A stretch of 34,452 nt of DNA from Candidatus Adlerbacteria bacterium (GCA_903915735.1 CAIWUA010000073.1:1-34452), one strand, 5' to 3'. Shown: positions 2,799-23,578, counted from the first letter of the stretch. The notes: a model not told the origin generated them from the sequence alone. A program made the numbers and translations.

Positions 2799-2935
2799 CA
2801 ACTTATTTTTTGACGGTTTTTTTCAAACAATACTCGAAGTATAGATAGCCATCTATTATCCCCAATTTAGCCTTTTGTTGCAGGCTATTTTTCCAATTCT
2901 TCATATAAAATTAACGGAGGGGATGTACCCCGTTT

Positions 2936-5900
2936 ATGGCTCTACGCCTGCATACGGTCTTTGGAGTATTTTTTGCTGTTTTGGCGCTCTATGGTGCACC
3001 CTTGTTTGTCGCGCACGCGGCGTGGGATCATACTCCCTATGCCGCCGGTCAAACCCTCAACCCCGAGTGCGGGCCAACCGACGAAAACTGCACCGTTAAT
3101 ACTAATTATTTTTCGCAGCCGGTAGGGTTTGCCACCACAACGCCCGCGGCGACGGTAGAGATAGCGGGCTCGGGCAGGGGCAACACCTTTTTGGGCAGCG
3201 GTAGTTCGCTGTTAAACATTGATGCGGCCAATGAGGGTCCGTGGGGGCTCACCTTCCAAAACGATGTTGCCGGCATGGGCAACGAAGTGGGATTTTATCT
3301 CGGCAATGACGGGACATTCCACCTGAGCGACAATATTGGCCACTTTCTTTTTAACGCGTTTCAAAACGGCAACGTAACGCTCGCTCAGTACGGCGGCAGG
3401 GTGGGTGTCGGCACCAGCAACCCCCAAAGCACGCTCGATGTCGGCGGCGACATCGGGATCTCAGGATATAACCGCTATCTCAACTTTAATGTCGATAATT
3501 TTGGTGTCGGCTCGGGCGGCTTTGGCTTGCGCGACAACGGGGGCACCATCCAATACAAAAACCTCGGCGGCAGCTGGACCGACCTCAGCCAAAGCGCCTG
3601 GGAGACCAACGGCAGCGGGATCGACTATGGCGGCGGCAGTGTTGGCATTGGTACCACCGAACCTAAAACAACCCTCACGGTCAACGGCGCGCTCTCGACG
3701 CTTTTGGAGGGCGATGTATTTAAGCAATATGACCCCACCACCGGGGAAGGGAATCTTTACCCGCTGCTTGGCCGCTATTTTGACGAAAGTGGGAGCCCAT
3801 ATAGCGGTATGACTTTCCTCTTTGGCTCCGGCCCTAGCGCTGCGGTTGGTATAGAAAAGCCGGGCGGAGACAAAGTAAATCTCTTCCGCGTGCGCGCGGA
3901 CAACAGCACCTTTACCGGCAATGTCGGGATAGGCACCACTAACCCGACATCCAAGCTCGATGTGGTAAGTATGCCCGGCACCGATGTGGGCGACTCGGTC
4001 GCCTCGTTTACCTCAAACGACACTTGGCAGTCTGGGTTTACCGTCTCCAACACATCCTCCGAGGCCGCGTGGTCCTTTATGGTCGGTGGAGACACAAACA
4101 ACTACAGCGGTGTGGATGTGGGGAACTTTGGTTTTTATAACGCAGCGTCGGGCAACTTTCCGTTTATCATGCAGCGCAGCTCCAACAATGTTATTCTCAC
4201 GCGAGACAACGGCCGGGTGGGTATCGGCACCTCAAACCCCAACGCCAAGTTGCAGGTTGATGGTCTTGTAACCGGCGACAGCTTTGGTGTCGGGCAAAAC
4301 ACCTGGCTCACCAACAGCGCGCCGTGGTACGGCATTGGCCTCAGCGACCTGTCGCTGCCGCGCACCGAGGATGCCGGGCGCGCCGTGCAGGTGGCGGGCT
4401 ACGGCGGGCTCAACTTTATTACCTCGGGCGGGCAGATGGTGCTCAACGACCAAGGCAAGGTAGGTATCGGCACCAACGACCCGCAATCGACGCTCGACGT
4501 CAACGGCGACATCCGTATAACCGGCAGTGACCACCGACTCTACTTCTCCGACGGTTCGTCGATGTGGACCTCTTCGAGCACCAACGCCAGCGGTGTCGAC
4601 AGCGAGGGCGACATCAACTTTACCACCGGCGGGCAAATAAATTTGATTACCGGAGACGGCTTTGCAACGAGCTCAAAACTCACGGTCAAAAACAACGGCT
4701 GGATAGGCATCGGCACGCAAGACCCGACCTCGCCGCTTGATATTTATGATAACCAAACCGGCCAGCGCAATCTTTTAACGCTGCAGAGCTTTTTTGACGG
4801 CGGCGACCAGGGGCCGGGGATACTCTTCCGCGATACCAACAACCCGGGCGGTGACGGCGCGGCCGGTATCCGTGCGATTTCATCCGGCCAAGGCGAGGCG
4901 GGACTTGCATTTGATACCAACTACAGCGGGAGCCTCAACGAGGCGATGCGCATAGACTCTCGCGGCCGCGTGGGCGTCGGCACCAACAACCCCGACGAGA
5001 TGCTGCAGGTCAACGGGCGGGCTAGTGCCGACAGCTTTTCGGTAGGCCAAGCGACCGAGGATAATTTCAACAACTCGCCGTGGTATGGCATCGGGCAGAG
5101 CAACATAACGCTCCCTGGTACCGACTACGAGTTTGGGACAGCTGTGCAGGTTGCGGGCTACTACGGGCTCTTGTTCCAAGCGGCGGGAGGTCAAGCGGTG
5201 TTTAATCAGCAAGGCAACTTTGGCATTGGCACGACCGCTCCCGCGACGATGCTCGATGTAGCTGGCTCGGCGCGTCTTACCAGCACGACGGGCGACACCT
5301 ACCTTAACTTCGGCACGAGCACGACCGGTGCCGACGGCTACGGCGTACGCTTCCACGCTGGGGTGATGCAGTTTCGCAACAATGGCGGCGACTGGACCGA
5401 CCTTGGCACTGGCTACGGTACACCCACCACCACTATCAACATTGCGGGCCCCGGAGGCAACGATGGTCTCAAATTTTCGTCGACCTACAGCTCACCAACC
5501 GGTTGGGCGGGCAATGTGATCGGCTCATCCACCAACTATTTGTATGTACAAAACAACAACAGGGGTTTTGATGTCGTAGACATCACCAATCGCGCGCACC
5601 CGGTAAGGGTGGCGAGTTACCAAACCGGCTCGTCGTGGATTAACCAGTCCTTCTCGTTTGGGAGCACGGTGTATCTCATTGGCTATGACGGTCGGTATCA
5701 CCTCGAGATTATCGATGTGTCCGACCCGACCCACCCGGTAGAGACGGGCACCTACTACTCAACCAGCGCCGACCACGTATACCAAGGTGCCGCGTGGGGA
5801 GGCGAAGTGTATCTTAAAAACGACAACGGTTACATCGAGGCGGTTAATGTATCAAACCCGGCGTCTCCGCAGGTCGACGCTGTGATCCATGCGCACTCAG

Positions 5901-8900
5901 ATGACGGACCTTTTTGGAATCCTCCGCACGCGAGCGGCAACCGGCTCTTTGTGGCCGACTACAACGGTGACGTCGAGATATTTGACGTCACCGACCCGAC
6001 CGCGCCGGTGTGGAAGTCGAACTACCACTCGGCACAAGGGTGGGCCTATCACTACACAATCTCGGGTAATTATTTGTACGAAAACTTTAACAACTTTGAG
6101 GTGGTCGATATCCATGACCTCACCAGCCCGACCCTGGTGGCCACCTACAGCTCGCCGTCGTCATGGATAGACGCACCGACCGTGTCGGGGGCCTATGCCT
6201 ATGCCGAGAACAACAACAGCCAGCTCGAAGCCATTGATATCAGCAACCCTGCAGCACCCACCTTTGTAACTACTTACGCCTCGGCGAGCGGCTGGTTGAA
6301 CGGCTCTCCTTTTATTGACAATGGGTACTTGTACACAGAGAACAACAACAACCAATTAGAGGCCATCGACATCAGCAACCCGCACGTGCCCATTGCCGCG
6401 ACCTTTACCGGCGGGCGCGTGGGGGTGGGCACGCTGTCGCCCGATGCGGCGCTGTCGGTAGTAGGCACCGGCGGCAATGTGCCCGTGTTCAAATCACACT
6501 ACATCTCGCCCACTAACTATCTTAATACTCCCTTTGTACTCAACTCGATTGCGTATAGCGAAAACGATAACGGCGCGATAGAGATAATCGACGAGACCGA
6601 CCCGACGCACCCGGTACTTGATGCAACTTATGCCTCGACGACGGGATCGCTGCGCGTGCCTATGGCTGCCGGCAACGCACTGTATGCGGTCAATAACAGC
6701 GACGGCTCTATCGAGGTTGTAGATGTTACCAACAAATCGGCCCCAACCTACCTGACCTCGCTGGTGGGTCAAGAGGGCTCGACGTTTAATTACTTTACTA
6801 TCAGCGGGTCGCACCTATACGCGGTTGATACGGCGGGGAATCTTGAGATCTTTAACATCTCCGATCCTTCAAACATTACACTAGACGACGCGTTTACTGC
6901 GTCGACCGGCCTTGATTACAACAATGTTATTAGTGCTCAAGGCACGTGGGTCTACGTGCGCACAACTGACGAAGATATAGATATTATAGACGCCTCCACG
7001 CCGTCGGCCCCAACCGACGAGGGTACCTACAGCCCGCATACGGGCATCGTACGCTCTTTCTTTGCGGCCGATGGGGTGCTGTATATCCAAAACAGCAGCT
7101 ACAACATCGAGATAGCCGATCTCCAAACCCCGAGTAGTCCTGTCTATCGCTCAACCTACGATGTGCCGACCAATCTGTTTATCCGGTCCGGTGCCGAGGA
7201 GGAAAACCGCTTCCTTTACATCCCCGATAACGACTGCTCGATTGAAGTCGTCGATGTTAACGACCAGTATAATCCGCGGTTGGTGTCGGTGTACAAGGGG
7301 CCCAGCAACTGCGCAGGGAATGCTTTTGTGGACTCTAACAAGTTGTACGTAATAAACGGCAACGACCAGCTCGAAGTTGCCGACATCTCGAGTGTGCCGC
7401 ACCCCAGCAGTGCGGCCACCTTTGAGGATGGCCTGGTCGGCATCGGTACAAATACTCCGCACGCCACACTCGACGTCAACGGCAATGTCGCTCTCTCGGG
7501 CTACAACCGCTACTTTAACTTTAATGCCGACAACTCCGGTGTGGGCCAAAACGGCTACGGCTTCCGTGACAACAGCGGGACCATACAATACAAAAACGCG
7601 GGCGGCACGTGGAGCGACTTCTCTGCTCCGAGCGGCTGGGTGGCCGAGAGCGACGGCAGCACACGCTTTGGCTCGGGCACTTACACGCTGAGCGGCTTGC
7701 CGACCAAATCATCCGACATAACCGACGGACTCTTTCTTTACCCGGTTAATGTCAACAGCAACACCGACTGGCGCTACTATATCGACGACGACTCGACCGA
7801 CTCGTTGTCCTTTTATGGCAATAGCTGTGCTAGCGACTGTCACAACGCAAGTGCAGCATCGGTCATCATGCACCTCAACGCCTCGGGCGAAGTAGGCATC
7901 GGCACAAGCACGCCCGCCGCCAAGCTCGACGTGGCCGGGTCGGCGCGACTTATCGCCGACGGCGATGCGTATCTCAACTTTAACAGCACGACCAACTACG
8001 CGGGCGATACGATAGGCAACGGCGGCTACGGTATCCGCATGCACAACGGGGTGATGCAGTTTAGAAACGAGAGCGGCGACTGGACCGATATGGGCTCGGG
8101 TACCGGAAGTATTTCATCAACAACAGCGCTTACTCTTATCGGCACAACAACGCCGCCGGTTATCAGCGGCACTTCTACCTACGGCGATTGGCCGACCGCG
8201 GTGGCGATACAGGGCCACTATGCTTACAGCGTCAACTCAAACAGCGGGTCGTTTACCGTGACCGATATCACCAACCACAACAGTCCGGTGGTCGTCGATG
8301 TGATTACCGGGTTGGGGAGCGACTACGACTCGCCCGAGGACATCGCCGTGGCCGGGCACTATGCCTATGTGACCAGCGAAGGTAACGAACGACTGTATGT
8401 TGTCGACATATCAAATGCCGAAAATGTCTCGGTGGTGGGGTCGTACGACTTTTCAAGTTTGGGCAACGGGCCCGACCATATCAAAGTCGAGGGCTCTTAT
8501 GCGTATGTAACCGCGCCTAACGCCGGGCTCGCGGTGCTTAACATACAAAATCCTCTAAACATTACGCTCACCGGCTTTCTTAAGCTGCCGGGCGCCGATC
8601 CGTTGACGGTGCAAGGCTCGTACGTGTATGTCTCGGACGTAACCACCAATGATGTGTATGCCATTAATGTTGCCGACCCGGCGCACCCCGCTATTGTTGG
8701 CGGCATATCGGTGGCTTCTGCGTACGGACTCGATATGGCCGGCCGCTACTTGTATGTGGCCAGCAACAACTCCGGCGAGCTGACGGTCATTGATGCCGCC
8801 GATCCGTCGTCGCTCAGTTTTGTCACCTCGGTCGAGACAGACAACTATCCGGGGTTTGTAAAAATTGAAGGCAAGCGCGCGTATGTGAGCACCTCTAACG

Positions 8901-11900: not shown

Positions 11901-14900
11901 ATAGCGGCGGACAATTAGTTGTGGTCGACATTGCCGACCCGACCGCGCCGCACACAGTCGCGACGCTTCCAATAGCACAAGACGGCGCCAACTTTGTGGC
12001 GATACAGGGCAAACTTGCCTACGTTACCGGCGACAACGGTCTCTCGCTTGTCGACATCTCCGACCCGACCAACCCGCAACTTGTCGGCACCAGTAACGAA
12101 AAGGTCGCGCTGGGAGACATGGCTATTGAGGGCCGCTACCTCTTTGCCACCCAGATGGACAGCGGCTCGGTCTATGTGCTCGACCTTGGCGGCAGCTATA
12201 TCCAACAACTCGAGGCCGGCGGCATCAAGGCCGGCAGTCTGTCGGTGACGGGCAACTTCTCGGCACAAAGCGGATCGATTGCCGGCGCACTCAGTGTGGG
12301 CGGCTTGACCGCGCAAGGGCCGGCGGCTATCCACTCGCTGCTGCAGGTATTTGGCAATGGCGGCACCAACGGCGCACGCTACACAGCGACCTACCGCTCG
12401 ACCGAAGGCCTCCAAGTACCGAGCACCGCCACCACGGTTACCGGTCGGCAATTGGCGCTCTTTGGCACCGATGGCGACGGGTTCGAGATTATCGATGTGA
12501 CCAACCCCAACAGCCCCGTTATAAAAGGCCGCTACAGCTCGGTCAACTCGCCGTTTAGCGACCCGTATGTGGCGGGCACCACGGCGTATGGAGCAAACAC
12601 CAACGGCAACCTCGAGGCGGTCGATATTACCGACCCGACCAACCCGCAGTTTGGGTCGGAGACAGCGGGCGATGTGCCGCTCGTTTCGGTGGCGGGGGTT
12701 GAGGCCAGCACGACGGCATCGTCGACTATCTACGCGATCGATGCTGCCGGCAACCTCGAGAAGCTGTATGCCGACCCGTCCGACGGGACGTCGGTCGCCT
12801 ACGACTCTACGTATGTGGCGAGCCATGCGCTCGAGCAGGTGCAGTTTGATTTTGCGCACGAGATGGCCTATGGCGTCAACAGCAACCATCAAATTGAAGT
12901 GGTAAACCTTGTCAATATGTCGAACATTACCTCCTTCGAGGGCTTGGCGCCGATCTTTAAGATCGCTCTCTCAGGCAATTATGTATACGCCACCAACAAC
13001 TACGGTCAACTCATGTCGCTCCACAGTAACAGTAACGGCGACCTCCAACAGGTTGGCATCTACAATACGACCAATGCGTGTATCACGACCGGTACGCCGC
13101 CCGTTATCCACGGTTCGTACGCTTTTGTTTTGACCTGCAACAATGCATTTGAAATCGTAGACATCTCTAACCCGGTGCAGATGAGTTATGTGGGCACCTA
13201 TGCCTCGCCGACCGGCAGCCTCAACTATGCGGCGATTATCGGCAACAACCTGTACTCGATCGACGACAATAATAATCTCGAGATTATCGATGCCTCAAGC
13301 CCCAAGCCGCCGGTGGCTGCAACCTTTACCGGCGGGCACGTGGGCGTCGGCACCACGAACCCCGGCGCGGCGCTGTCGGTAGTGGGCGAGGGCGGCAGTA
13401 CGGTGACGACGCTCGGGCAGTACCAGTCGCCGAGCACCGACCTCAGCAGCAACTACATGGTCGACGGCGACTATGTCTACGCGCTTAACAACAACAGCGC
13501 CATCGAGATAATCGACGAGCGCGACACGGCACGCCCGCAGCGTGTGGCGGTTATCACCGACAAAAACTTCAGTCAAATCGACGTGCAGGGCGACCTGCTT
13601 GCCGCGACGGCGAGCGACGGCAGCGGTCTGCGCCTGTATGACACTGCGGACAAGGCGCACCCGATAGCCACCAGCACGATAGCGGCCAACGATACCGGAG
13701 ATAGTGGTCACTTGGTCTGGCCGGTTATTGTGGGCAACCGGCTGTTTGCGATAGACACAGGCAACAATCAGCTCGAGGCGTTTGATATCTCTGACCCGTC
13801 TAACCCCAGCTACTTGGGCAACTACGCCAGCGTGAGCGGGGACGGGCTCTCTACCAGCTTCCGTATTGCGGTCCAGGGTACGGTGGCCTATGTCTACAAC
13901 CAGGACAATCAAATCGAGCTTATCGATGTGCACGACCCAACAGACATGGCACCACTGTCGACTTGGACCGGCGGCTCGGGCGCGAGCGGCGACTTTAGCG
14001 TGTCGGGGCAGTACCTCTTCCAAAGAAACAACGGCGGCAACCTTGAGATTGTCAGCGTGGCCAACCCGGCGAGCCCGAGCGCTATCACCACGTTTTATCC
14101 CGATAGCTCCTTGGGCACTCTCACTAAGAGTATGTTCTACCAGGGTCATCTGTATGTCCCCGACGACTGCCAAATAGACGTACTCGACCTGACCGACCCC
14201 TCGAGCCCGGTACGCGTCGACACCTACCACTCGCCGAGTAGTTGCGCCAGCGAGCCGAACATAAGCCAAAACGGCAAAGCCTTTGTGTACAACGATAGCG
14301 ACGGCATCGAGGCTATCAACATCGCCGGCATAAGCCAAAAAAATATGGCCGCCACCTTTGTTAACGGCCTCGTGGGTATCGGCACCGACAACCCCGACGC
14401 GCAGCTCGATGTCAGTGGTACCTTTGCGGCGAGCGGCGCACTGCGTTTTGGTTCGGGTACCTATTGGATGAACAATGTCCCGACGCTCGCCACCAACGCC
14501 AACGAAGGGCTCTTTATGTACCCGACCCAAACCGGTGGCGGCAACAGCACAGACTATCAATGGATTATCGACGGCGGGTTTGGCGGCTCGATGTCCTTCT
14601 GGGGGAGTATACCGTTTGGCAACCACAACGCGCAGGATACTAGCCTCATCATGTACATGGATGCGTACAACAACCGCGTGGGTATCGGTACCAGCAACCC
14701 GCACGCATTGCTCGATGTCAACGGCGACGTAGCAATATCGGGTTACAACCACTACATCAACTTTAATGCAGACGGCTCCGGTGTCGGGAGTGGCGGCTAC
14801 GGCATTCGCGACACCGGCGGCACCATGCAGTTTAAAAACAGTGGCGGCACGTGGACCAATTTTGGCGCAGGCACCCTGCAGTGGACCGACGACGGTATGG

Positions 14901-16624
14901 GTAACATCGCCTACAACAGTGGCAGTGTCTCTATCGGCGGCAACGTCTCTATTGGCAACGGCGCGGTGAGCTACGACTCGGGCTCGGGCGTGACCGCCAT
15001 CAGCAACCTCTCTATCGGTGCGCTTAACTTCCCGCTTGATGCGGGCATGGTGCAGTGGGTAGACCTGCCGGTATCGGCCGCCCCCGCCGGCACCGAAGAG
15101 GGTTACTCGGCCATGATCGGCGGTGCCGAAGTGCTCACGGTGTACGGCGAGTCAAACGGCGACGGCACCGTGGGCAACCTGCGTGTGGGCATCGGCACCA
15201 CCACGCCGGTGGCGGTACTCGACGTCGAGTCGACCACCTCGTTTGCATTGTTGCCACGCATGGACAACCTCGAGCGCGACGCGATTAGTTTGCCGCAGAC
15301 CGGCGGGCTTATCTTTAACACCGCAAGCTCGACGCTGCAATACTTTGCAACCTCGACACCGGGCACCGTCGAGACCATCGGCACTTTGGCCGCCGATCAG
15401 GCTGTGTATGACGGCCCGGCCGAGGGTCAAACATACACCACGACCGCCGCCGGGCGACTCACGCAAATCGAAGGCTCCTTTGCAATACGCACGGCGCCCG
15501 ACTCGGTGGTGGCCAAAGTGTACGACGCGCCCAACGGCAAGCTCTTGGGTGTGTCGGACAATGCGGTGTCCGACAGCGACGCCACCGAGTTTACCTTTGT
15601 CGACGGCACGTGGACCTTTAACAACTGGGCGGTGATGCTAAAGGCAAACACGAGCTACTACATCGAATTTACCGCGGTCGGCAACAACAATCTATATTTC
15701 GACACGACGCAAAATTATCCCGGCTCGGGCGGTGTGTACGCCGGCGGCAAGCACTACTCGGGCCCGAGCGGCTCGGTATCGGCGCATGACGACATGGACC
15801 TCAACATGCGCTTGACCTACGGCGGTTCGACGGGCGGATGGTCTGATGTCGGCTACGGCGGCGCCTTCGAGTGGAGTAATGCCGGTGGCACGGGCGCGAT
15901 GTCGTATGTCGGCGGCAATGTCGGTATCGGCACCACCTCGCCGTGGACTACCTTTGCGGTCCAAGGCACCGTGGCTATGAGCGGCCTGTCGACAGAGACC
16001 GGCATGAGCGGCGCGGCGCTGTGTCTAACGGCTTCGGGCGAAGTCGTCGTTAACTCGGGCGTACAAGACTGTACGCTGTCCTCCGAGCGCTACAAACACA
16101 ATATAGAAGGCCTCGATATTTCCGGCACTTCGACCATTATGGAGCTTTCGCCGTCGTCGTTTGTATACAACAGCGACACGGCATCGACGACGCATTGGGG
16201 CTTTATCGCCGAGGCGCTCGCGTCGACCAGCCCCGAACTTGCGCAGTACGGGCTCGACGGCAAACCGCAGTCGGTCAACCAAATCGGCATACTCGCGGTG
16301 GTCGTCAAGGCGGTGCAAGAGCTCACGGCTACGATCCAAGGATTTGCCGAACGCTTTACCTCCAAAGAGGTCGACACACAAAAGTTGTGCGTCGGCGACA
16401 CCTGCGTGACACAAGATCAGCTCAAGGCACTCTTGCAGGCGGCGGGCTCGTCGTCGACCCCTGCGGCACCAAGCGGTGCGGCGACCTCGAGCGACTCAAC
16501 CTCTGGCACCGACGACTCGGCAAGCTCTACGCCGGCCGATACCGAAGCGTCTTCGACGCCACCTGTCGCGCCTACTGACACAGACTCTGCAAGCACCTCT
16601 CCCGACGCCACACCGGCCAATTAA
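2936..16624 (+). CDS. Giant secreted tail-fibre-like surface protein (4,562 aa). Order: signal peptide, GIGT-collar stalk modules, seven LVIVD-like beta-propeller blocks, two paralogous beta-sandwich-like domains, S74-type C-terminal intramolecular chaperone, acidic S/T/P tail
   Basis: One uninterrupted 13,689-nt ORF. The N-terminus MALRLHTVFGVFFAVLALYGAPLFVAHAAW is a signal peptide. GGAGGGG (2917-2923) lies upstream, and there is no in-frame alternative start after the TAA at 2912. A coherent repeat architecture runs throughout (see sub-features). Confidence 0.92.
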   Translation: MALRLHTVFGVFFAVLALYGAPLFVAHAAWDHTPYAAGQTLNPECGPTDENCTVNTNYFSQPVGFATTTPAATVEIAGSGRGNTFLGSGSSLLNIDAANEGPWGLTFQNDVAGMGNEVGFYLGNDGTFHLSDNIGHFLFNAFQNGNVTLAQYGGRVGVGTSNPQSTLDVGGDIGISGYNRYLNFNVDNFGVGSGGFGLRDNGGTIQYKNLGGSWTDLSQSAWETNGSGIDYGGGSVGIGTTEPKTTLTVNGALSTLLEGDVFKQYDPTTGEGNLYPLLGRYFDESGSPYSGMTFLFGSGPSAAVGIEKPGGDKVNLFRVRADNSTFTGNVGIGTTNPTSKLDVVSMPGTDVGDSVASFTSNDTWQSGFTVSNTSSEAAWSFMVGGDTNNYSGVDVGNFGFYNAASGNFPFIMQRSSNNVILTRDNGRVGIGTSNPNAKLQVDGLVTGDSFGVGQNTWLTNSAPWYGIGLSDLSLPRTEDAGRAVQVAGYGGLNFITSGGQMVLNDQGKVGIGTNDPQSTLDVNGDIRITGSDHRLYFSDGSSMWTSSSTNASGVDSEGDINFTTGGQINLITGDGFATSSKLTVKNNGWIGIGTQDPTSPLDIYDNQTGQRNLLTLQSFFDGGDQGPGILFRDTNNPGGDGAAGIRAISSGQGEAGLAFDTNYSGSLNEAMRIDSRGRVGVGTNNPDEMLQVNGRASADSFSVGQATEDNFNNSPWYGIGQSNITLPGTDYEFGTAVQVAGYYGLLFQAAGGQAVFNQQGNFGIGTTAPATMLDVAGSARLTSTTGDTYLNFGTSTTGADGYGVRFHAGVMQFRNNGGDWTDLGTGYGTPTTTINIAGPGGNDGLKFSSTYSSPTGWAGNVIGSSTNYLYVQNNNRGFDVVDITNRAHPVRVASYQTGSSWINQSFSFGSTVYLIGYDGRYHLEIIDVSDPTHPVETGTYYSTSADHVYQGAAWGGEVYLKNDNGYIEAVNVSNPASPQVDAVIHAHSDDGPFWNPPHASGNRLFVADYNGDVEIFDVTDPTAPVWKSNYHSAQGWAYHYTISGNYLYENFNNFEVVDIHDLTSPTLVATYSSPSSWIDAPTVSGAYAYAENNNSQLEAIDISNPAAPTFVTTYASASGWLNGSPFIDNGYLYTENNNNQLEAIDISNPHVPIAATFTGGRVGVGTLSPDAALSVVGTGGNVPVFKSHYISPTNYLNTPFVLNSIAYSENDNGAIEIIDETDPTHPVLDATYASTTGSLRVPMAAGNALYAVNNSDGSIEVVDVTNKSAPTYLTSLVGQEGSTFNYFTISGSHLYAVDTAGNLEIFNISDPSNITLDDAFTASTGLDYNNVISAQGTWVYVRTTDEDIDIIDASTPSAPTDEGTYSPHTGIVRSFFAADGVLYIQNSSYNIEIADLQTPSSPVYRSTYDVPTNLFIRSGAEEENRFLYIPDNDCSIEVVDVNDQYNPRLVSVYKGPSNCAGNAFVDSNKLYVINGNDQLEVADISSVPHPSSAATFEDGLVGIGTNTPHATLDVNGNVALSGYNRYFNFNADNSGVGQNGYGFRDNSGTIQYKNAGGTWSDFSAPSGWVAESDGSTRFGSGTYTLSGLPTKSSDITDGLFLYPVNVNSNTDWRYYIDDDSTDSLSFYGNSCASDCHNASAASVIMHLNASGEVGIGTSTPAAKLDVAGSARLIADGDAYLNFNSTTNYAGDTIGNGGYGIRMHNGVMQFRNESGDWTDMGSGTGSISSTTALTLIGTTTPPVISGTSTYGDWPTAVAIQGHYAYSVNSNSGSFTVTDITNHNSPVVVDVITGLGSDYDSPEDIAVAGHYAYVTSEGNERLYVVDISNAENVSVVGSYDFSSLGNGPDHIKVEGSYAYVTAPNAGLAVLNIQNPLNITLTGFLKLPGADPLTVQGSYVYVSDVTTNDVYAINVADPAHPAIVGGISVASAYGLDMAGRYLYVASNNSGELTVIDAADPSSLSFVTSVETDNYPGFVKIEGKRAYVSTSNGLDVFDISDPTSPVFVSTALSGTYVVNFDTDGQWGYALVEGIGGALLTVDLGSSYIQNLAAGGIKTTSLTIEHALSAQSGLFQNGVSVGGSVLANGGISAMGQSSFERIGVGTTTMRAGLDVVGSSNDQVVTLTSASATSTGNIVDMAWGDGVLAAAEDGTVTIWTTSGTTLQWQSTITATDSIKAVAIVGSLLLVGDGRYLKAYAITDPTNPTYQNEVYTGEQIRGITTYGNIAYVVNDASVIETYDLAVLVGGSDNPFLGYASLSGTPYHVKLSADGNYAYVSEWGRVQVIDVSNLTSPVSTGAYAPGDIGGGGIAVGNGYAYTTRNTSDGKSFVVLDTSDPTNPVPVGYADIGIDREYTGMVVVGSTVYVSDGDLDSVYAINVSKPTHPVVVGHSPTQSSYNRAIATDGSGNLFVGEFGTLEGFSTSAQSLAALFMNGNVGIGTSQPQAQLEISGQGSGNFFGDPTLLAIHTQDGTPWGIAFVNDAAGSNIGFGEFLTNDGTLVFEKGDDMNNLSLTQDGLMGIGTRTPDAKLTIANGGIHLTNTGDNYINFGEAPGELTGAEGYGIRIHNGAMQFKNEGGDWTDMGSGGGGNLSLSGSMLTTTLGTTTQYTDGTGAFVDGTTDHAVIVGQTITPAHNGMLQSVEALIRMFDVDHDGQVIVKIYDDNNGTLLAQADAPQVAPYMYGAPADTTWTFNASRLMLQAGHTYDVEFVSLSNNDIMLFEADGDAYAGGNMYDGPYHGSLTPQPGNDLQFNVVYGGQTGGLVEVGSLASPLSLNLLGSTTPMTLASTSVGQTPWGMTVAGGWGYVANGESGTLSVLSLSNPLHPQTVATLSGFGQSGGPTEVPEDVAVQGSYAYVTSEEESRLYVVDISNRAKPAIISSVEFGDLGGSNSPDHVVVQGQYAYVADEDQGLVIINIGDPKHPTIASRMGNNGSPEQLAVRGKYVYITNTDQKGLDVVDVSDPSAPHIVGHDDIAGGPYGVTLDSRYAYVTLGMSDSGGQLVVVDIADPTAPHTVATLPIAQDGANFVAIQGKLAYVTGDNGLSLVDISDPTNPQLVGTSNEKVALGDMAIEGRYLFATQMDSGSVYVLDLGGSYIQQLEAGGIKAGSLSVTGNFSAQSGSIAGALSVGGLTAQGPAAIHSLLQVFGNGGTNGARYTATYRSTEGLQVPSTATTVTGRQLALFGTDGDGFEIIDVTNPNSPVIKGRYSSVNSPFSDPYVAGTTAYGANTNGNLEAVDITDPTNPQFGSETAGDVPLVSVAGVEASTTASSTIYAIDAAGNLEKLYADPSDGTSVAYDSTYVASHALEQVQFDFAHEMAYGVNSNHQIEVVNLVNMSNITSFEGLAPIFKIALSGNYVYATNNYGQLMSLHSNSNGDLQQVGIYNTTNACITTGTPPVIHGSYAFVLTCNNAFEIVDISNPVQMSYVGTYASPTGSLNYAAIIGNNLYSIDDNNNLEIIDASSPKPPVAATFTGGHVGVGTTNPGAALSVVGEGGSTVTTLGQYQSPSTDLSSNYMVDGDYVYALNNNSAIEIIDERDTARPQRVAVITDKNFSQIDVQGDLLAATASDGSGLRLYDTADKAHPIATSTIAANDTGDSGHLVWPVIVGNRLFAIDTGNNQLEAFDISDPSNPSYLGNYASVSGDGLSTSFRIAVQGTVAYVYNQDNQIELIDVHDPTDMAPLSTWTGGSGASGDFSVSGQYLFQRNNGGNLEIVSVANPASPSAITTFYPDSSLGTLTKSMFYQGHLYVPDDCQIDVLDLTDPSSPVRVDTYHSPSSCASEPNISQNGKAFVYNDSDGIEAINIAGISQKNMAATFVNGLVGIGTDNPDAQLDVSGTFAASGALRFGSGTYWMNNVPTLATNANEGLFMYPTQTGGGNSTDYQWIIDGGFGGSMSFWGSIPFGNHNAQDTSLIMYMDAYNNRVGIGTSNPHALLDVNGDVAISGYNHYINFNADGSGVGSGGYGIRDTGGTMQFKNSGGTWTNFGAGTLQWTDDGMGNIAYNSGSVSIGGNVSIGNGAVSYDSGSGVTAISNLSIGALNFPLDAGMVQWVDLPVSAAPAGTEEGYSAMIGGAEVLTVYGESNGDGTVGNLRVGIGTTTPVAVLDVESTTSFALLPRMDNLERDAISLPQTGGLIFNTASSTLQYFATSTPGTVETIGTLAADQAVYDGPAEGQTYTTTAAGRLTQIEGSFAIRTAPDSVVAKVYDAPNGKLLGVSDNAVSDSDATEFTFVDGTWTFNNWAVMLKANTSYYIEFTAVGNNNLYFDTTQNYPGSGGVYAGGKHYSGPSGSVSAHDDMDLNMRLTYGGSTGGWSDVGYGGAFEWSNAGGTGAMSYVGGNVGIGTTSPWTTFAVQGTVAMSGLSTETGMSGAALCLTASGEVVVNSGVQDCTLSSERYKHNIEGLDISGTSTIMELSPSSFVYNSDTASTTHWGFIAEALASTSPELAQYGLDGKPQSVNQIGILAVVVKAVQELTATIQGFAERFTSKEVDTQKLCVGDTCVTQDQLKALLQAAGSSSTPAAPSGAATSSDSTSGTDDSASSTPADTEASSTPPVAPTDTDSASTSPDATPAN
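3394..5410 (+). other. N-terminal stalk region of the giant ORF, containing eight collar motifs (G-x-V-G-I/V-G-T-x-x-P-x-x-x-L-D-V) and two 'QY/F-K/R-N-x-G-G-x-W-T-D' modules
   Basis: Read from the translation: GRVGVGTSNPQSTLDV, GSVGIGTTEPKTTLTV, GNVGIGTTNPTSKLDV, GRVGIGTSNPNAKLQV, GKVGIGTNDPQSTLDV, GWIGIGTQDPTSPLDI, GRVGVGTNNPDEMLQV, GNFGIGTTAPATMLDV. There is also a duplicated SPWYGIG...AVQVAGY segment. Confidence 0.6.
5510..6405 (+). repeat. LVIVD-like beta-propeller block 1 (7 blades, type A) in the giant ORF
   Basis: Blade cores: FDVVDITNRAHPV, LEIIDVSDPTHPV, IEAVNVSNPASPQ, VEIFDVTDPTAPV, FEVVDIHDLTSPT, LEAIDISNPAAPT, LEAIDISNPHVPI. Period is about 43 aa. Boundaries are approximate. Confidence 0.6.
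6485..7423 (+). repeat. LVIVD-like beta-propeller block 2 (7 blades, type A)
   Basis: Blade cores: IEIIDETDPTHPV, IEVVDVTNKSAPT, LEIFNISDPSNIT, IDIIDASTPSAPT, IEIADLQTPSSPV, IEVVDVNDQYNPR, LEVADISSVPHPS. Confidence 0.6.
8170..9075 (+). repeat. LVIVD-like beta-propeller block 3 (7 blades, type B with G-x-Y-A-Y-V strands)
   Basis: GHYAYSVN..FTVTDITNHNSPV, GHYAYVTS..LYVVDISNAENVS, GSYAYVTA..LAVLNIQNPLNIT, GSYVYVSD..VYAINVADPAHPA, GRYLYVAS..LTVIDAADPSSLS, GKRAYVST..LDVFDISDPTSPV. The block ends LLTVDLGSSYIQNLAAGGIK. Confidence 0.6.
9290..10190 (+). repeat. Divergent propeller-like block 4 (about 7 blades, type C)
   Basis: YLKAYAITDPTNPT, VQVIDVSNLTSPV, FVVLDTSDPTNPV and VYAINVSKPTHPV, plus degenerate blades (VTIWTTSGTT, VIETYDLAVL, LFVGEFGTLE). 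Confidence 0.45.
10720..11190 (+). other. Domain X, copy 1: about 155-aa beta-sandwich-like domain of unknown function (its pattern is reminiscent of DUF4082-type domains)
   Basis: GQTITPAHNGMLQSVEALIRMFDVDHDGQVIVKIYDDNNGTLLAQADAP...TTWTFNASRLMLQAGHTYDVEFVSLSNNDIMLFEAD...YAGGNMYDGPYHGS...NDLQFNVVYGG. It is paralogous to 15380-15826. Confidence 0.4.
11270..12210 (+). repeat. LVIVD-like beta-propeller block 5 (7 blades, type B; paralogue of block 3)
   Basis: GGWGYVANG..LSVLSLSNPLHPQ, GSYAYVTS..LYVVDISNRAKPA, GQYAYVAD..LVIINIGDPKHPT, GKYVYITN..LDVVDVSDPSAPH, SRYAYVTL..LVVVDIADPTAPH, GKLAYVTG..LSLVDISDPTNPQ. The block ends VYVLDLGGSYIQQLEAGGIK. Confidence 0.6.
12400..13327 (+). repeat. LVIVD-like beta-propeller block 6 (7 blades, type A)
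   Basis: FEIIDVTNPNSPV, LEAVDITDPTNPQ, LEKLYADPSDGTS, IEVVNLVNMSNIT, a degenerate blade LMSLHSNSNGDLQ, FEIVDISNPVQMS, LEIIDASSPKPPV. Confidence 0.55.
13410..14358 (+). repeat. LVIVD-like beta-propeller block 7 (7 blades, type A)
   Basis: IEIIDERDTARPQ, LRLYDTADKAHPI, LEAFDISDPSNPS, IELIDVHDPTDMA, LEIVSVANPASPS, IDVLDLTDPSSPV, IEAINIAGISQKN. Confidence 0.55.
15380..15826 (+). other. Domain X, copy 2 (paralogue of 10720-11190)
   Basis: GQTYTTTAAGRLTQIEGSFAIRTAPDSVVAKVYDAPNGKLLGVSDNAV...GTWTFNNWAVMLKANTSYYIEFTAVGNNNLYFDTT...YAGGKHYSGPSGS...MDLNMRLTYGG. Its conserved positions are in the same order as in copy 1. Confidence 0.4.
16079..16440 (+). other. Peptidase S74-type C-terminal intramolecular chaperone / autoproteolysis domain of the giant ORF
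   Basis: S-S-E-R-Y-K-H-N-I-E-G-L (codons from 16079) fits the S-D-x-R-x-K-x-x-I Ser/Lys dyad signature of tail-fibre and endosialidase chaperone domains. It is followed by FVYNSD...HWGFIAEALAS..PEL...VNQIGILAVVVKAVQEL and LCVGDTCVTQDQLKALL. Confidence 0.7.
16441..16621 (+). repeat. Low-complexity acidic Ser/Thr/Pro/Asp tail (about 60 aa) at the extreme C-terminus of the giant ORF
   Basis: AGSSSTPAAPSGAATSSDSTSGTDDSASSTPADTEASSTPPVAPTDTDSASTSPDATPAN. Confidence 0.8.
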
Positions 16625-22993: not shown

Positions 22994-23578
22994 ATGGACA
23001 CCCCTCTACCAGAGCCGCGTCGCCGTCGTCGTCGCACAGAGCTCGAGGTAGAAGTACAACCACCTATGACAGACCAACAACAAGCCGCCTATGCAACAGT
23101 AGCCAAGCCGGGATTTTTTGTCCGCATGCTTGTATGGTTGCTGCGATTTTGCCGCCGCAATATCTTTAGCGTCGTGCCCGTCGCTATTTTGCTTATAGCG
23201 CTCGGGTATTATTACTACCAGTATCAAAACCTGCTCAGTAAAAGCCCGGCGAACGCCCAAGCTCAGGCGCAAGAGCAGACGCGCGCCGTCGTGACCGATA
23301 TCGAAAAGCTCATGTATATTGCCGACGACTCGGGCGCGCAGTTGGCGACCATATCGGATATCACCAAACTCCAAGGTCAAAAGTTTTTTGAGAACGCCAA
23401 AAACGGCGACGACTTGGTGCTCTTCCCGGCGGCGCAACAAGCCATCCTGTACCGGCCTTCGACGCACAAGATAGTGCAGGTAGGTCCTTTTACTCCGGGG
23501 ACAGGGTCAACAGCCTCCTCGGCCGCCTCGGGCACTAAAGCTCCGGCTACCCAAGCCACCTCGACAAAAACACGCTAA
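22994..23578 (+). CDS. Hypothetical single-pass membrane protein (194 aa)
   Basis: Arg-rich cytoplasmic N-terminus (PEPRRRRRRTELE), TM FSVVPVAILLIALGYYYY, and a C-terminal S/T/A-rich tail. Confidence 0.7.
   Translation: MDTPLPEPRRRRRRTELEVEVQPPMTDQQQAAYATVAKPGFFVRMLVWLLRFCRRNIFSVVPVAILLIALGYYYYQYQNLLSKSPANAQAQAQEQTRAVVTDIEKLMYIADDSGAQLATISDITKLQGQKFFENAKNGDDLVLFPAAQQAILYRPSTHKIVQVGPFTPGTGSTASSAASGTKAPATQATSTKTR

What the first reader, a model, noticed from the sequence alone, without database searches (positions are those of the whole stretch)
2936..16624. A single 13.7-kb ORF (4,562 aa) occupies about 40% of the window
The reading frame is uninterrupted under the standard code. It has a clean signal peptide and a consistent repeat grammar from start to end, so it is not an assembly or frame artefact. 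Proteins of this size are rare. This one mixes phage-tail-fibre hallmarks (GIGT collars, an S74 chaperone) with many beta-propellers, which is not a classical fibre design. If the S74 domain works as it does in phage fibres, the mature product would be a homotrimer of about 4,380-aa chains.
Basis: partly seen in the sequence, partly recalled or inferred. Interest (0 to 1): 0.7.

Follow-up and report, generated by a model that had tools for sequence, protein, structure and literature searches.

The report
Giant propeller-studded surface fibre gene
The 13.7-kb reading frame is a real chromosomal gene of an ultra-small (CPR/Parcubacteria) bacterium; it most likely encodes a secreted, self-cleaving, three-chain fibre related to phage tail fibres and to the prey-recognition fibres of Bdellovibrio, here greatly enlarged by seven beta-propellers per chain, and probably used to bind other cells.

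Summary
An uninterrupted 4,562-codon ORF lies at 2936-16624 (+). Codon statistics are uniform along it and no 21-mer is repeated, so repeat collapse is very unlikely.

The protein has:
- a Sec signal peptide;
- 19 'GIGT' modules, whose profile matches only the crystal structures of Bdellovibrio MAT trimeric fibres;
- seven LVIVD/choice-of-anchor-B beta-propellers (46 blades);
- two copies of a phage-tail-like beta-sandwich domain;
- one C-terminal Peptidase_S74 chaperone with an invariant Ser4382/Lys4387 dyad.

Three points are new.
1. The gene is cellular, not phage. It sits among GroEL, tRNAs, MurJ and LepA of a Patescibacteria genome.
2. It belongs to a large, undescribed family. Of the 150 best relatives, 26 are at least 2,000 aa and 6 at least 4,000 aa. 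A subfamily shares its N-terminal head, propellers and S74 end.
3. It heads a conserved cluster: fibre, often a LamG protein, then two unknown membrane proteins. This order recurs in five independent relatives.

Trimerisation, self-cleavage and a role in host-cell adhesion are inferred, not shown. Beta-propeller plus beta-helix stalk plus S74 is the design of phage K1F endosialidase, so it is not an unclassical design. I rate it a new variant of a known kind, of moderate interest.

The parts
2916..2922 (+). Shine-Dalgarno-like GGAGGGG upstream of the ATG at 2936
   Evidence: Read directly from the sequence. tRNA-Ser(GGA) lies just upstream at 2714-2799.
2936..16624 (+). Whole ORF: 4,562 aa plus stop, 475 kDa precursor, pI 4.1
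2936..3019 (+). Signal peptide, aa 1-28; predicted cleavage AHA|AW
   Evidence: It is the only hydrophobic segment of the protein apart from one isolated window at aa 2166 inside propeller 4. Relatives P0128, P0133 and P0139 have the same AxA|(A/S)W site. No signal-peptide predictor was available.
3020..3100 (+). Conserved N-terminal 'head', aa 29-55: AW.H.PY..GQTLNPEC.PTDENCTV, with Cys45/Cys52
   Evidence: phmmer finds it at the same place, right after the signal peptide, in 17 relatives. These include all the propeller-bearing ones: P0128, P0133, P0138, P0139 and P0008. No Pfam match.
3101..5422 (+). Shaft 1, aa 56-829: eight GIGT modules, predicted trimeric beta-helix
   Evidence: GIGT positions. 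PHROG tail-fibre family phrog_18345 over aa 494-799. PDB hit to 8OND, the Bd2133 MAT fibre. 912 homologues, many ending in S74.
5423..7435 (+). Propellers 1 and 2, aa 830-1161 and 1162-1500; a GIGT loop at aa 1162 lies between them
   Evidence: LVIVD. TIGR04312 choice-of-anchor B, best stretch aa 1250-1493. The blade HMM finds 7 + 7 blades.
7436..8092 (+). Shaft 2, aa 1501-1719: two GIGT + 'YLNF...GYGIR...MQFKN..G.W' modules
8093..10225 (+). Propellers 3 and 4, aa 1720-2096 and 2097-2430, joined by a short 'GSYIQNL.AGGIK' beta-helix-like junction and the GIGT-type loop (RIGVGT) at aa 2097
   Evidence: LVIVD. 6 + 5 blades detected. 40.6% identity to P0128 over aa 1653-2446. Weak PDB match to the 7-bladed hydrazine synthase beta subunit 5C2V.
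10226..10732 (+). Shaft 3, aa 2431-2599: two GIGT modules
10733..11260 (+). Domain X, aa 2600-2775: beta-sandwich, paralogue of X'
   Evidence: 34% identity to aa 4164-4300. Member of alignment A1. No Pfam match.
11261..14371 (+). Propellers 5, 6 and 7: aa 2776-3130, 3131-3468, 3469-3812
   Evidence: LVIVD, best stretch aa 2888-2921. 7 + 6 + 7 blades. Propeller 5 is about 42% identical to propeller 3, and propellers 6-7 are paralogous to 1-2.
14372..15352 (+). Shaft 4, aa 3813-4139. It holds three GIGT modules, the widely shared module at aa ~3995-4084, and a motif at aa ~4092-4140 (LDVES...LLPRM..ERDAIS.P..GLIFNT...LQYF) resembling proteins that carry Pfam PF26696 'PTL_trimer'
   Evidence: The best-matching stretch in most giant relatives falls here. 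P0276, precomputed as PF26696 + Collar, matches aa ~4092-4140 at 56% identity. PF26696 is not in the local Pfam copy, so this assignment is indirect.
15353..15865 (+). Domain X', aa 4140-4310: jelly-roll-like beta-sandwich
   Evidence: AlphaFold2 with a 14-sequence alignment gave pLDDT 82.6 and pTM 0.80. Foldseek: phage phi812 baseplate protein 9EUI_Q (E 6e-6, TMq 0.58), PBCV-1 and cyanophage capsid-associated proteins, mycobacteriophage central fibre, CBM6/CBM22. In BFVD: phage minor tail, DUF4815 and collagen-repeat tail proteins.
15866..16078 (+). Last beta-helix segment, aa 4311-4381, with the GIGT at 4329 and Cys4363/Cys4379. It becomes the distal tip after cleavage
   Evidence: Cys4379 is invariant in the family alignment.
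16079..16360 (+). Peptidase_S74 intramolecular chaperone, aa 4382-4475; catalytic motif S4382-S-E-R-Y-K4387
   Evidence: Pfam PF13884 above its cut-off. Ser and Lys invariant in 26 relatives. The profile hits solved S74 domains 8JOV, 6F45, 8HQZ and 7DC3.
16361..16621 (+). Post-chaperone 'KLCVGDTCVTQDQLKALL' Cys hairpin (aa ~4476-4498) and acidic Ser/Thr/Pro-rich tail (aa 4499-4562). Both would leave with the chaperone as an 18.5-kDa fragment
   Evidence: The hairpin is conserved in many relatives. Composition and mass.
16628..19351 (+). Downstream partner gene: secreted 907-aa protein with three Laminin_G_3 domains. It starts 4 nt after the fibre stop
   Evidence: Pfam E 2e-74. A LamG gene directly follows the fibre gene in L081, L082 and L086/L087 as well.
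22994..23578 (+). Conserved cluster gene u194: 194 aa, one transmembrane segment at aa ~52-75, no known family
   Evidence: Homologues (39-58% identity) follow the fibre gene in L081, L083/84, L085 and L086/87, and in L033 and L049. Hydrophobicity.
23582..24832 (+). Conserved cluster gene u416: 416 aa, with signal peptide, three 'GYAW...GWINF' repeats, a Pro-rich linker, a beta-rich domain and a C-terminal membrane anchor; no known family
   Evidence: Homologues (40-45% identity) in all five relatives' clusters. Sequence. No Pfam, NCBIfam, PHROG or PDB match.

Best explanation
The ORF is a chromosomal gene of a Patescibacteria (CPR, Parcubacteria-type) bacterium. It encodes a giant secreted fibre of the S74-chaperoned, phage-tail-fibre-like kind. 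The closest characterised analogues are the MAT (mosaic adhesive trimer) fibres of Bdellovibrio.

Proposed mechanism:
1. The 475-kDa precursor is exported by Sec and the signal peptide is cut after AHA28.
2. The three C-terminal S74 domains associate and nucleate folding of an intertwined trimeric beta-helix shaft. The 19 GIGT motifs are the edge 'capping loops' of that helix.
3. Ser4382/Lys4387 then cut the chain. This releases an 18.5-kDa chaperone-plus-tail fragment and leaves a 3 x 454-kDa fibre (about 1.36 MDa).
4. Between shaft segments each chain loops out into seven 7-bladed LVIVD propellers and two jelly-roll domains. The trimer would therefore carry 21 propellers and 6 beta-sandwiches in tiers along a rod roughly 100 nm long.
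5. These globular domains and the exposed C-terminal tip bind ligands, probably glycans or surface proteins, on a partner or host cell.
6. The conserved N-terminal head is probably cell-proximal. It may dock to the co-conserved membrane proteins u194 and u416.

Shown here: gene integrity, domain content, homologies, cellular context and the conserved cluster.
Inferred: trimer, cleavage, geometry, anchoring and the adhesive role.

The gene grew by internal duplication of shaft-plus-propeller cassettes (aa ~830-1720 resembles 3130-4100; aa 1645-2090 resembles 2505-3125).
For: - Integrity.
- Cellular CPR context: the neighbours are GroEL, LemA, an M48 peptidase, four tRNAs, DUF192, a TPR protein, MurJ and LepA. 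LepA is 84-85% identical to Parcubacteria-type MAGs. No neighbour matches a phage family. The only match among cultured phages is 31% identity over the S74 part. Large GIGT ORFs, with weak S74-like matches in some, sit upstream of TPR-MurJ-LepA in other Parcubacteria (L033, L036, L041, L049, L058), followed by a u194-like gene in L033 and L049.
- Shaft: the profile of the protein's own 19 GIGT windows hits only MAT fibre crystal structures (E 2e-8 to 3e-3) and then MyRF. The MAT paper defines this motif (V-G-G/N-pi-x-x-P-x-x-x-L) as capping loops of an intertwined trimeric beta-helix, shared with MyRF (PMC10769870).
- S74.
- Propellers.
- X' fold.
- Extracellular character: 14 Cys in 7 close pairs and no internal transmembrane segment.
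- Family: 5,674 relatives at E <= 1e-3. A subfamily (P0128 2,528 aa, P0138 2,342, P0133 2,892, P0139 3,120) has the same head, LVIVD propellers and S74 end; all but P0128 also carry domain X.
- Conserved cluster with u194 and u416, with or without LamG.
- Precedent for giant surface proteins in CPR host attachment: PMC8080830 and PMC13059738.
- Precedent for propeller + beta-helix stalk + cleaved chaperone: K1F endosialidase (PMC12632334).
Against: - No multimer model could be made, and the single-sequence AlphaFold2 model of aa 4073-4505 failed (pLDDT 37). Trimerisation therefore rests on homology only.
- The single-sequence search of the C-terminus against the PDB found nothing; only the family profile did.
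- Position +1 of the S74 motif is Ser, not the usual Asp (SSERYK versus SDxxxK).
- No anchor to the cell is visible: no lipobox, no sortase signal and no C-terminal transmembrane segment. The fibre might simply be released.
- No ligand or host is known, and LVIVD propellers have no established function.
- Whether 21 propellers can pack around one three-fold shaft is untested.
- Expression is not shown.
- No close orthologue of similar length was found to confirm the 13.7-kb length independently.
Confidence: 0.68

Rival explanations
1. It is a phage or prophage tail-fibre gene, a virion part, that happens to lie in this window.
For: S74 and GIGT modules are typical of phage fibres. PHROG tail-fibre and other PHROG families match parts of it. 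A tRNA gene lies directly upstream.
Against: Flanking genes are housekeeping. No neighbour hits a phage family. There is no match in IMG/VR by its own peptides. Only 31% identity over the S74 part to a cultured phage. The same fibre, u194, u416 order recurs in five relatives among cellular genes, without nearby tRNAs. The cluster sits next to TPR-MurJ-LepA in several Parcubacteria. The protein has a Sec signal peptide, which virion fibres do not need.
Confidence: 0.04
2. The long ORF is an assembly or frame artefact: collapsed or chimeric repeats, or two genes fused by an error.
For: The protein is highly repetitive, comes from a metagenome-type genome, and no identical protein is on record.
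Against: No 21-mer is repeated and the longest exact repeat is 19 nt. DNA repeats are at most 84% identical. GC3 is uniform. There is a single signal peptide, head and S74 domain. P0128 is co-linear at both ends and over aa 1653-2446. Relatives of 2.3-6 kaa come from independent assemblies, and P0139 was found on two contigs and P0138 on ten.
Confidence: 0.04
3. It is a monomeric 'beads-on-a-string' adhesin in which the S74-like end is vestigial. There would be no cleavage and no trimer, and the GIGT segments would be spacers.
For: Trimerisation was not tested. The motif has Ser in place of the usual Asp at +1. Many giant bacterial adhesins are monomeric.
Against: The catalytic Ser and Lys and the preceding Cys are invariant in 26 relatives. 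The domain scores above Pfam's cut-off, and its profile finds active phage chaperones. Every PDB match of the GIGT profile below E 1e-2 is an intertwined trimer (PMC10769870).
Confidence: 0.1
4. It is the same trimeric fibre, but its main role is enzymatic or offensive rather than adhesive: a depolymerase or cell-wall-attacking spike, like endosialidase and other tailspikes. Alternatively it is a structural coat or spacer of the cell.
For: The founding S74 proteins are depolymerases with catalytic propellers. Giant genes of predatory bacteria have been linked to cell-wall degradation (10.1101/2023.11.21.568195).
Against: No glycosidase, sialidase/BNR, lyase or peptidase family other than S74 matches. 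LVIVD/choice-of-anchor-B propellers have no known catalysis. X' resembles carbohydrate-binding and phage receptor-binding sandwiches. The partner gene is a LamG lectin-type protein.
Confidence: 0.12

Closest known systems
Bdellovibrio bacteriovorus MAT (mosaic adhesive trimer) fibres, e.g. Bd3182 (S74 type) and Bd2133 (PDB 8OND); Caulton et al. 2024, PMC10769870
   Same: A cellular, not viral, Sec-exported protein. It has a conserved domain right after the signal peptide. A long shaft is built from repeats carrying the VG(G/N/I)GxxPxxxL capping-loop motif. It ends in an S74 self-cleaving chaperone with an S-x4-K dyad. The family varies by swapping binding domains. These fibres are used by a bacterium that lives on other bacteria. 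MAT structures are the only PDB sequences that the GIGT profile finds below E 1e-2.
   Different: It is about 4.5 times longer (4,562 versus about 1,000 aa). Binding domains are not only at the tip: seven LVIVD propellers and two jelly-rolls are intercalated along the shaft. The N-terminal head is a different, CPR-specific sequence, and its relation to the MAT N-domain was not tested. The host is a Patescibacteria cell without an outer membrane. A Cys hairpin and an acidic tail follow the chaperone. It sits in a conserved cluster with LamG, u194 and u416.
Phage K1F endosialidase tailspike (founding Peptidase_S74 / CIMCD protein)
   Same: A homotrimer combining a beta-propeller per chain, a triple beta-helix stalk and a C-terminal chaperone that is cleaved off at a Ser-Lys dyad (PMC12632334).
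   Different: It has one catalytic GH58 sialidase propeller rather than seven LVIVD propellers. It is about 1,060 aa, is a virion component without a signal peptide, and no sialidase/BNR signature is found here.
Phage T5 L-shaped tail fibre pb1 and other S74-ended tail fibres (PDB 8HQZ, 4UW8, 8JOV, 6F45)
   Same: A long trimeric fibre whose C-terminal ~130 residues are an intramolecular chaperone removed by self-cleavage. These are direct profile matches.
   Different: They are phage-encoded, have no propellers, and are at most about 1,400 aa.
Giant surface proteins of CPR and other episymbionts (Vampirococcus lugosii 1,392-4,163 aa, PMC8080830; Strigamonas methylophilicida, PMC13059738)
   Same: Very large, signal-peptide-bearing surface proteins of ultra-small host-dependent bacteria. 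They are rich in interaction domains and are proposed to mediate host recognition.
   Different: Those reports list WD40, PKD, fibronectin, integrin and concanavalin-type domains. The passages I read do not mention S74, GIGT shafts or trimeric phage-like fibres.
LVIVD-repeat / choice-of-anchor B (TIGR04312) surface proteins
   Same: The seven propellers match both models above their cut-offs.
   Different: The TIGR04312 profile is 364 positions long, about one propeller; here seven are strung within a fibre.
MyRF (myelin regulatory factor) ICA domain
   Same: A non-viral protein using the same beta-helix plus S74 module for trimerisation-dependent self-cleavage (profile hit 7DC3, E 6.5e-4). 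It shares the capping-loop motif.
   Different: It is a eukaryotic membrane-bound transcription factor in which cleavage frees the N-terminal part from a membrane anchor. The C-terminal fragment here has no membrane anchor.

Membership tests
Peptidase_S74 / intramolecular chaperone auto-processing (CIMCD/ICA) proteins | C-terminal domain homologous to the endosialidase chaperone | tested here: met
   PF13884 at aa 4382-4435, 29.3 bits against a cut-off of 22. The family profile hits 8JOV 9e-13, 6F45 4e-10, 8HQZ 5e-8 and 7DC3 6.5e-4.
Peptidase_S74 / intramolecular chaperone auto-processing (CIMCD/ICA) proteins | Ser-Lys catalytic dyad, S-x-x-x-x-K, at the start of the domain | tested here: met
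   S4382-S-E-R-Y-K4387. Both residues are invariant in 26 aligned relatives and align with the S and K of the SDERLK motif of 8JOV. Position +1 is Ser rather than Asp.
Peptidase_S74 / intramolecular chaperone auto-processing (CIMCD/ICA) proteins | Trimerisation-dependent self-cleavage that releases the chaperone | not testable with these tools
   This needs expression of wild type against S4382A, or trimer modelling. Only monomer AlphaFold2 was available, and that model failed for this region.
Peptidase_S74 / intramolecular chaperone auto-processing (CIMCD/ICA) proteins | Triple beta-helix directly upstream of the chaperone | tested here: inconclusive
   A GIGT capping-loop module lies at aa 4329, 53 residues before the cleavage site. 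The GIGT profile matches trimeric beta-helices. No structure was obtained for this segment.
MAT (mosaic adhesive trimer) fibres of Bdellovibrio | Repeated capping-loop motif V-G-G/N-pi-x-x-P-x-x-x-L on a beta-helical shaft | tested here: met
   There are 19 copies with consensus G.VGIGT..P...LDV. The profile hits five distinct MAT sequences in 9 PDB entries at E 2e-8 to 3e-3.
MAT (mosaic adhesive trimer) fibres of Bdellovibrio | Signal peptide followed by the conserved ~130-aa beta-rich MAT N-terminal domain | not tested
   A signal peptide and a conserved head are present. No MAT N-terminal sequence was at hand for comparison, because the PDB entries cover only the tips. The head has no Pfam match.
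MAT (mosaic adhesive trimer) fibres of Bdellovibrio | About 1,000 aa, with the variable adhesive domain at the C-terminal tip only | tested here: not met
   The protein is 4,562 aa, with nine globular domains intercalated along the shaft.
MAT (mosaic adhesive trimer) fibres of Bdellovibrio | Surface display and a role in recognising other bacteria | not testable with these tools
   Needs microscopy or genetics in the organism.
LVIVD repeat / choice-of-anchor B beta-propeller | Tandem ~43-aa LVIVD blades forming a propeller | tested here: met
   PF08309 E 1.8e-116. TIGR04312 135.6 bits against a cut-off of 100. 46 blades at 41-48 aa spacing, all within seven regions.
Phage tail fibre (virion component) | Encoded in a phage genome next to tail or baseplate genes | tested here: not met
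   The neighbours are housekeeping genes with no phage families. The chromosomal cluster is conserved in relatives.
Endosialidase (GH58) tailspikes | Sialidase-type catalytic propeller | tested here: not met
   No sialidase or BNR family matches the giant protein at E <= 0.1.
Pfam PF26696 'PTL_trimer' | Match to the family model | not testable with these tools
   The model is absent from the local Pfam copy. P0276, P0139 and P0004 carry it in the precomputed table but not in the local scan. Aa ~4092-4140 is 56% identical to the corresponding stretch of P0276, and relatives P0133 and P0139 are precomputed hits.

The most novel reading that the evidence does not exclude
The fibre gene, the two co-conserved membrane proteins of unknown family (u194, u416) and the frequent LamG partner form a so far undescribed, lineage-wide cell-surface apparatus of Parcubacteria. 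It would be a membrane-docked, phage-fibre-derived 1.3-MDa trimer about 100 nm long, carrying 21 beta-propellers, and would serve as the cell's host-capture device. That would make it a CPR counterpart of Bdellovibrio MAT fibres, in which specificity evolves by duplicating and swapping intercalated binding domains.
Probability: 0.35. Interest if true: 0.72.

Novelty: new variant of a known kind. Interest (0 to 1): 0.55.

Why it matters
How CPR/Patescibacteria find and hold their host cells is largely unknown. Experimental work so far points mainly to type IV pili and a few adhesins.

This locus offers a concrete candidate. It is a large family of phage-fibre-like, S74-processed surface fibres in CPR and other small-celled lineages, held in a conserved gene cluster. 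Its parts can be tested directly: the self-cleavage site, the propeller and beta-sandwich binding domains, and two candidate anchor proteins.

It also extends the S74/MAT design principle in three ways. It moves it from one predatory proteobacterium to a different bacterial superphylum. It raises the size roughly 4.5-fold. And it shows that globular binding domains can be intercalated repeatedly along a trimeric shaft rather than sitting only at the tip.

For annotation, such genes should not be read as prophage markers. NCBI records among the relatives found here name some of them 'tail fiber domain-containing protein'.

Tried and rejected
- The full-length homology search timed out. Exact look-up of the protein found nothing. 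Scans of genome contigs, metagenome contigs and viral contigs with the protein's own peptides found no relative. The source genome and close orthologues are therefore not in those collections.
- The search for homologous proteins listed no protein above about 1,400 aa, so giant relatives were invisible there. The exhaustive representative search revealed them.
- The domain X' word-index search gave one weak hit.
- The single-sequence AlphaFold2 model of aa 4073-4505 failed (pLDDT 37) and was not used.
- Pfam at E <= 10 found nothing for the head, X, X' or the post-S74 region. The X profile against PDB sequences found nothing significant.
- 'LPQTG' at aa 4119 was considered as a sortase signal and rejected. 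It lies 440 residues from the C-terminus, inside the PTL_trimer-like motif, and homologues have YPAVG, SPGVG or NPALG there.
- A tRNA-linked genomic island was considered and rejected. The relatives' clusters have no tRNA nearby, and the cluster is syntenic with TPR-MurJ-LepA in other genomes.
- A fusion of two fibre genes was rejected.
- The long antisense ORFs inside the gene (for example 13295-14752 on the minus strand, 485 aa) have no evidence of coding. They were not examined further.
- The N-terminal membrane part of the TPR protein was checked for a glycosyltransferase family, which might glycosylate the Ser/Thr tails. No match was found.


Full report
**Observation**

The window contains one ORF at 2936-16624 on the + strand, 4,562 codons, ATG to TAA. 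A GGAGGGG site precedes it at 2916-2922, and tRNA-Ser(GGA) lies at 2714-2799.

Chance does not explain a frame of this length. From base composition, the probability of no stop in 4,562 codons is about 1e-70. The longest open stretch in 50 shuffles of the window was 359 codons.

Third-position GC is 0.68-0.77 in every 500-codon block, the same as in LepA, MurJ, the LamG gene and the M48 peptidase gene (0.69-0.72).

That can largely be set aside from sequence alone:
- the longest exact repeat inside the ORF is 19 nt;
- no 21-mer occurs twice, and there are no Ns;
- the DNA repeat families are only 60-84% identical;
- the protein-level repeats are 25-60% identical.

The ORF has one N-terminal hydrophobic segment, one head motif and one S74 motif, so it is not two fibre genes fused by an error. 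Read-level support could not be examined.

**Anatomy**

The parts, from N to C, are based.

| aa | Part |
|---|---|
| 1-28 | Signal peptide; predicted cut AHA\|AW |
| 29-55 | Conserved head with a Cys45/Cys52 pair |
| 56-829 | Shaft 1, eight 'GIGT' modules |
| 830-1500 | Propellers 1-2 |
| 1501-1719 | Shaft 2 |
| 1720-2430 | Propellers 3-4 |
| 2431-2599 | Shaft 3 |
| 2600-2775 | Domain X |
| 2776-3812 | Propellers 5-7 |
| 3813-4139 | Shaft 4 |
| 4140-4310 | Domain X' |
| 4311-4381 | Last beta-helix segment |
| 4382-4475 | Peptidase_S74 |
| ~4476-4498 | Small Cys hairpin |
| 4499-4562 | Acidic Ser/Thr/Pro tail |

- Pfam scores LVIVD at E 1.8e-116. NCBIfam scores choice-of-anchor B above its cut-off.
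- A blade HMM built from the protein finds 46 blades. All lie inside the seven propeller regions, 5-7 per region, spaced 41-48 aa.
- After each propeller or propeller group, the chain resumes with 'AA(T/L)F..G.VGIGT'. This fits propellers as excursions from a continuous shaft. The N and C termini of a beta-propeller lie next to each other, which is established structural knowledge.
- The 14 cysteines form seven close pairs, as expected for an extracellular protein.
- The gene grew by internal duplication: aa ~830-1720 resembles 3130-4100, and aa 1645-2090 resembles 2505-3125.

**What the modules are**

*GIGT modules.* A profile of the 19 GIGT windows, searched against all PDB sequences, finds at E below 1e-2 only the Bdellovibrio MAT fibre structures. 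These are 8OND (2.4e-8), 8OML, 8OL4/8ONF, 8OJN/8ONB/8ONC and 8ON4. MyRF follows below threshold. The single-sequence search had already found 8OND. The paper describing those structures defines exactly this motif (V-G-G/N-pi-x-x-P-x-x-x-L) as the capping loops of an intertwined trimeric beta-helix. It notes that the motif is shared with MyRF, and shows S74 self-cleavage at the SDxxxK serine (PMC10769870).

*S74 domain.* It is above Pfam's cut-off. In an alignment of 26 relatives, the Ser (4382), the Lys (4387) and the preceding Cys (4379) are invariant. The profile finds solved phage chaperone domains (8JOV 9e-13, 6F45 4e-10, T5 8HQZ 5e-8) and MyRF 7DC3. Cleavage there would leave aa 29-4381 (4,353 aa, 454 kDa) and free an 18.5-kDa fragment.

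*Domain X'.* Modelled with a 14-sequence alignment, it gave a confident all-beta sandwich (pLDDT 82.6, pTM 0.80). Its best structural matches are phage baseplate, central-fibre and minor-tail proteins, virus capsid-associated proteins and carbohydrate-binding modules, with TM-scores of about 0.5-0.58. Pfam has no match for it, nor for the head and the post-S74 region.

*PTL_trimer-like motif.* A motif at aa ~4092-4140 resembles proteins that carry the recent Pfam family PF26696 'PTL_trimer'. That model is not in the local library, so membership is untested.

**Context: cellular, not viral**

The window also encodes the C-terminal part of GroEL, LemA, an M48 peptidase, four tRNAs, DUF192, a TPR membrane protein, MurJ, LepA and a LUD-domain protein.

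LepA is 84-85% identical to LepA of Patescibacteria MAGs labelled Kaiser-, Nomura- or Adlerbacteria and the like.

The evidence against a viral origin:
- none of the unannotated neighbours hits a phage family;
- the protein's own peptides are absent from IMG/VR;
- cultured phages match only the S74 part, at 31% identity.

**Family**

The exhaustive search with aa 3813-4470 found 5,674 relatives at E <= 1e-3. Among the best 150:
- 26 are at least 2,000 aa and six are at least 4,000 aa;
- 109 share the S74 end;
- 10 have LVIVD-like propellers;
- 16 have the same head.

The closest subfamily comprises P0128 (2,528 aa), P0138 (2,342 aa), P0133 (2,892 aa) and P0139 (3,120 aa). These have the same signal-peptide cut site, head, GIGT shafts, two to four LVIVD propellers, S74, Cys hairpin and low-complexity tail; all but P0128 also have domain X. 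P0128 is 40.6% identical over aa 1653-2446 and co-linear at both ends.

Other giants of the wider family keep the shaft but carry different globular inserts: LamG, Kelch-like, BNR-like and FG-GAP-like domains (read from the sequences).

Shorter relatives (about 1,000-1,400 aa) occur in CPR, Elusimicrobiota, Margulisiibacteriota, DPANN archaea and a cyanophage.

The window's protein is the largest member of the head + LVIVD subfamily that I retrieved. The design is a family trait, however, not a one-off.

**Conserved gene cluster (new)**

The fibre stop is followed 4 nt later by a secreted 907-aa protein with three Laminin_G_3 domains. The same adjacency occurs after P0128 (3 nt), after the 90%-identical fragment P0136, and after P0138.

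Two further genes of no known family follow the fibre gene in all five independent relatives examined, at 39-58% and 40-45% identity:
- u194 (22994-23578) has one transmembrane segment;
- u416 (23582-24832) has a signal peptide, GWINF repeats and a C-terminal membrane anchor.

In the window, a 3.4-kb insert separates LamG from u194. It carries a 524-aa membrane protein and a PaaK-like ligase.

In more distant Parcubacteria, large GIGT ORFs, with weak S74-like matches in some, lie directly upstream of TPR-MurJ-LepA. In two of them (L033, L049) a u194-like gene follows. The locus is therefore an old chromosomal feature of this clade.

**Mechanism**

The best-supported reading is a Sec-exported, S74-chaperoned homotrimeric fibre.

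- The C-terminal chaperones nucleate the triple beta-helix and then cut themselves off. This is how S74 domains work in K1F endosialidase, T5 pb1, Bd3182 and MyRF (and the titles listed).
- About 1,700 shaft residues, scaled from Bd3182 (about 550 Å for about 760 residues) and Bd2133 (about 150 Å for 370 residues), plus nine tiers of globular domains, give a rod of roughly 100 nm. This is a rough inference.
- The rod would carry 21 propellers and 6 beta-sandwiches.
- I infer that the globular domains and the tip bind surface structures of a partner cell. The grounds are the analogy with MAT fibres and phage receptor-binding proteins, the lectin-type partner gene, and the general picture of giant surface proteins in CPR episymbionts (PMC8080830; PMC13059738).
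- The protein itself has no anchor. The co-conserved membrane proteins u194 and u416 are the obvious candidates for holding the N-terminal head. This is a hypothesis only.

**Rivals**

- Prophage fibre: contradicted by context and synteny.
- Assembly artefact: contradicted by k-mer uniqueness, uniform coding statistics and co-linear relatives.
- Monomeric adhesin with a dead S74 domain: unlikely given the invariant dyad, but not excluded.
- Enzymatic spike rather than adhesin: no catalytic family detected, but LVIVD function is unknown.

**Comparison and novelty**

The protein works like a MAT fibre or S74 tail fibre, and it passes the sequence-level tests for S74 and for the MAT capping-loop shaft. 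It fails the MAT size and tip-only architecture, and the MAT N-domain was not tested. I therefore call it MAT-like rather than a MAT member.

The new features are the seven-fold intercalation of propellers, the CPR setting, the family's size range and the conserved cluster.

I found no paper that mentions S74 in Patescibacteria or that links S74 or MAT fibres to CPR/DPANN among the listed results, and two CPR genetics/microscopy papers do not mention tail fibres or propellers.

**Verdict**

This is a new variant of a known kind. Interest is 0.55. Confidence in the overall explanation is 0.68: about 0.9 for a real cellular fibre gene, about 0.75 for trimer plus self-cleavage, and about 0.5 for host adhesion.

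Noticed in passing
window 22994-23578 and 23582-24832: Two genes of no known family follow the fibre gene in five independent relatives, at 39-58% and 40-45% identity. u194 has a single transmembrane segment. u416 has a signal peptide, three 'GYAW..GWINF' repeats, a Pro-rich linker and a C-terminal membrane anchor. They are candidate anchor or assembly partners.
   Followed up: partly
window 16628-19351: A secreted 907-aa protein with three Laminin_G_3 domains starts 4 nt after the fibre stop. A LamG gene sits in the same place in L081, L082 and L086/L087. It shows partial similarity to the TafC fimbrial family, through the LamG domain only.
   Followed up: partly
window 19570-22927: This looks like an insertion into the conserved cluster. 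It carries a 524-aa N-terminally anchored protein of no family and a PaaK-like AMP-dependent ligase (NCBIfam DVU_1553 family, E 5e-13). The listed 500-aa ORF overlaps a 193-aa ORF, so its true start is probably later.
   Followed up: partly
window 16361-16621 (aa 4476-4562): After the S74 chaperone come a conserved 'LCVGDTCVT..QLKALL' Cys hairpin and an acidic Ser/Thr/Pro-rich tail. Many family members share them. Their function is unknown, and they would be released with the chaperone.
   Followed up: partly
window 14918-15187 (aa ~3995-4084): The module 'GALNF..DAG.V.W.DLPV....Y.A..GG...LTVYGE..G.G' is the piece most widely shared with other giant relatives (P0129, P0134, P0135, P0141 and others). 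It has no family assignment.
   Followed up: no
window 15209-15352 (aa ~4092-4140): This motif resembles proteins annotated with the new Pfam family PF26696 'PTL_trimer', which is missing from the local Pfam copy. It contains a chance 'LPQTG'.
   Followed up: partly
window 2428-2700: An open reading frame starting at the ATG at 2428 (about 70 codons by eye; my translation of 2428-2640 hit stops, so the end is unverified) is followed by a G+C-rich hairpin and T-run at ~2650-2695, just before tRNA-Ser. It may be a small gene with its own terminator.
   Followed up: no
L033, L036, L041, L049, L058 (loci around LepA of other Parcubacteria): Large ORFs with GIGT modules (weak S74-like matches in L036, L049 and L058) run off the locus edge directly upstream of TPR-MurJ-LepA. 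In L033 and L049 a u194-like gene follows. The fibre locus is therefore syntenic across part of the clade, and some of these genes may also be giants.
   Followed up: partly
window 25703-27919 and 27925-29607: A strong negative AT skew (-0.42 and -0.37) falls in the N-terminal part of the 738-aa TPR protein (aa 1-520, no family found) and in MurJ.
   Followed up: partly
window 13295-14752 (- strand) and other antisense ORFs within the gene: Long antisense ORFs of up to 485 aa lie inside the giant gene. I found no evidence that they code for anything and did not examine them further.
   Followed up: no
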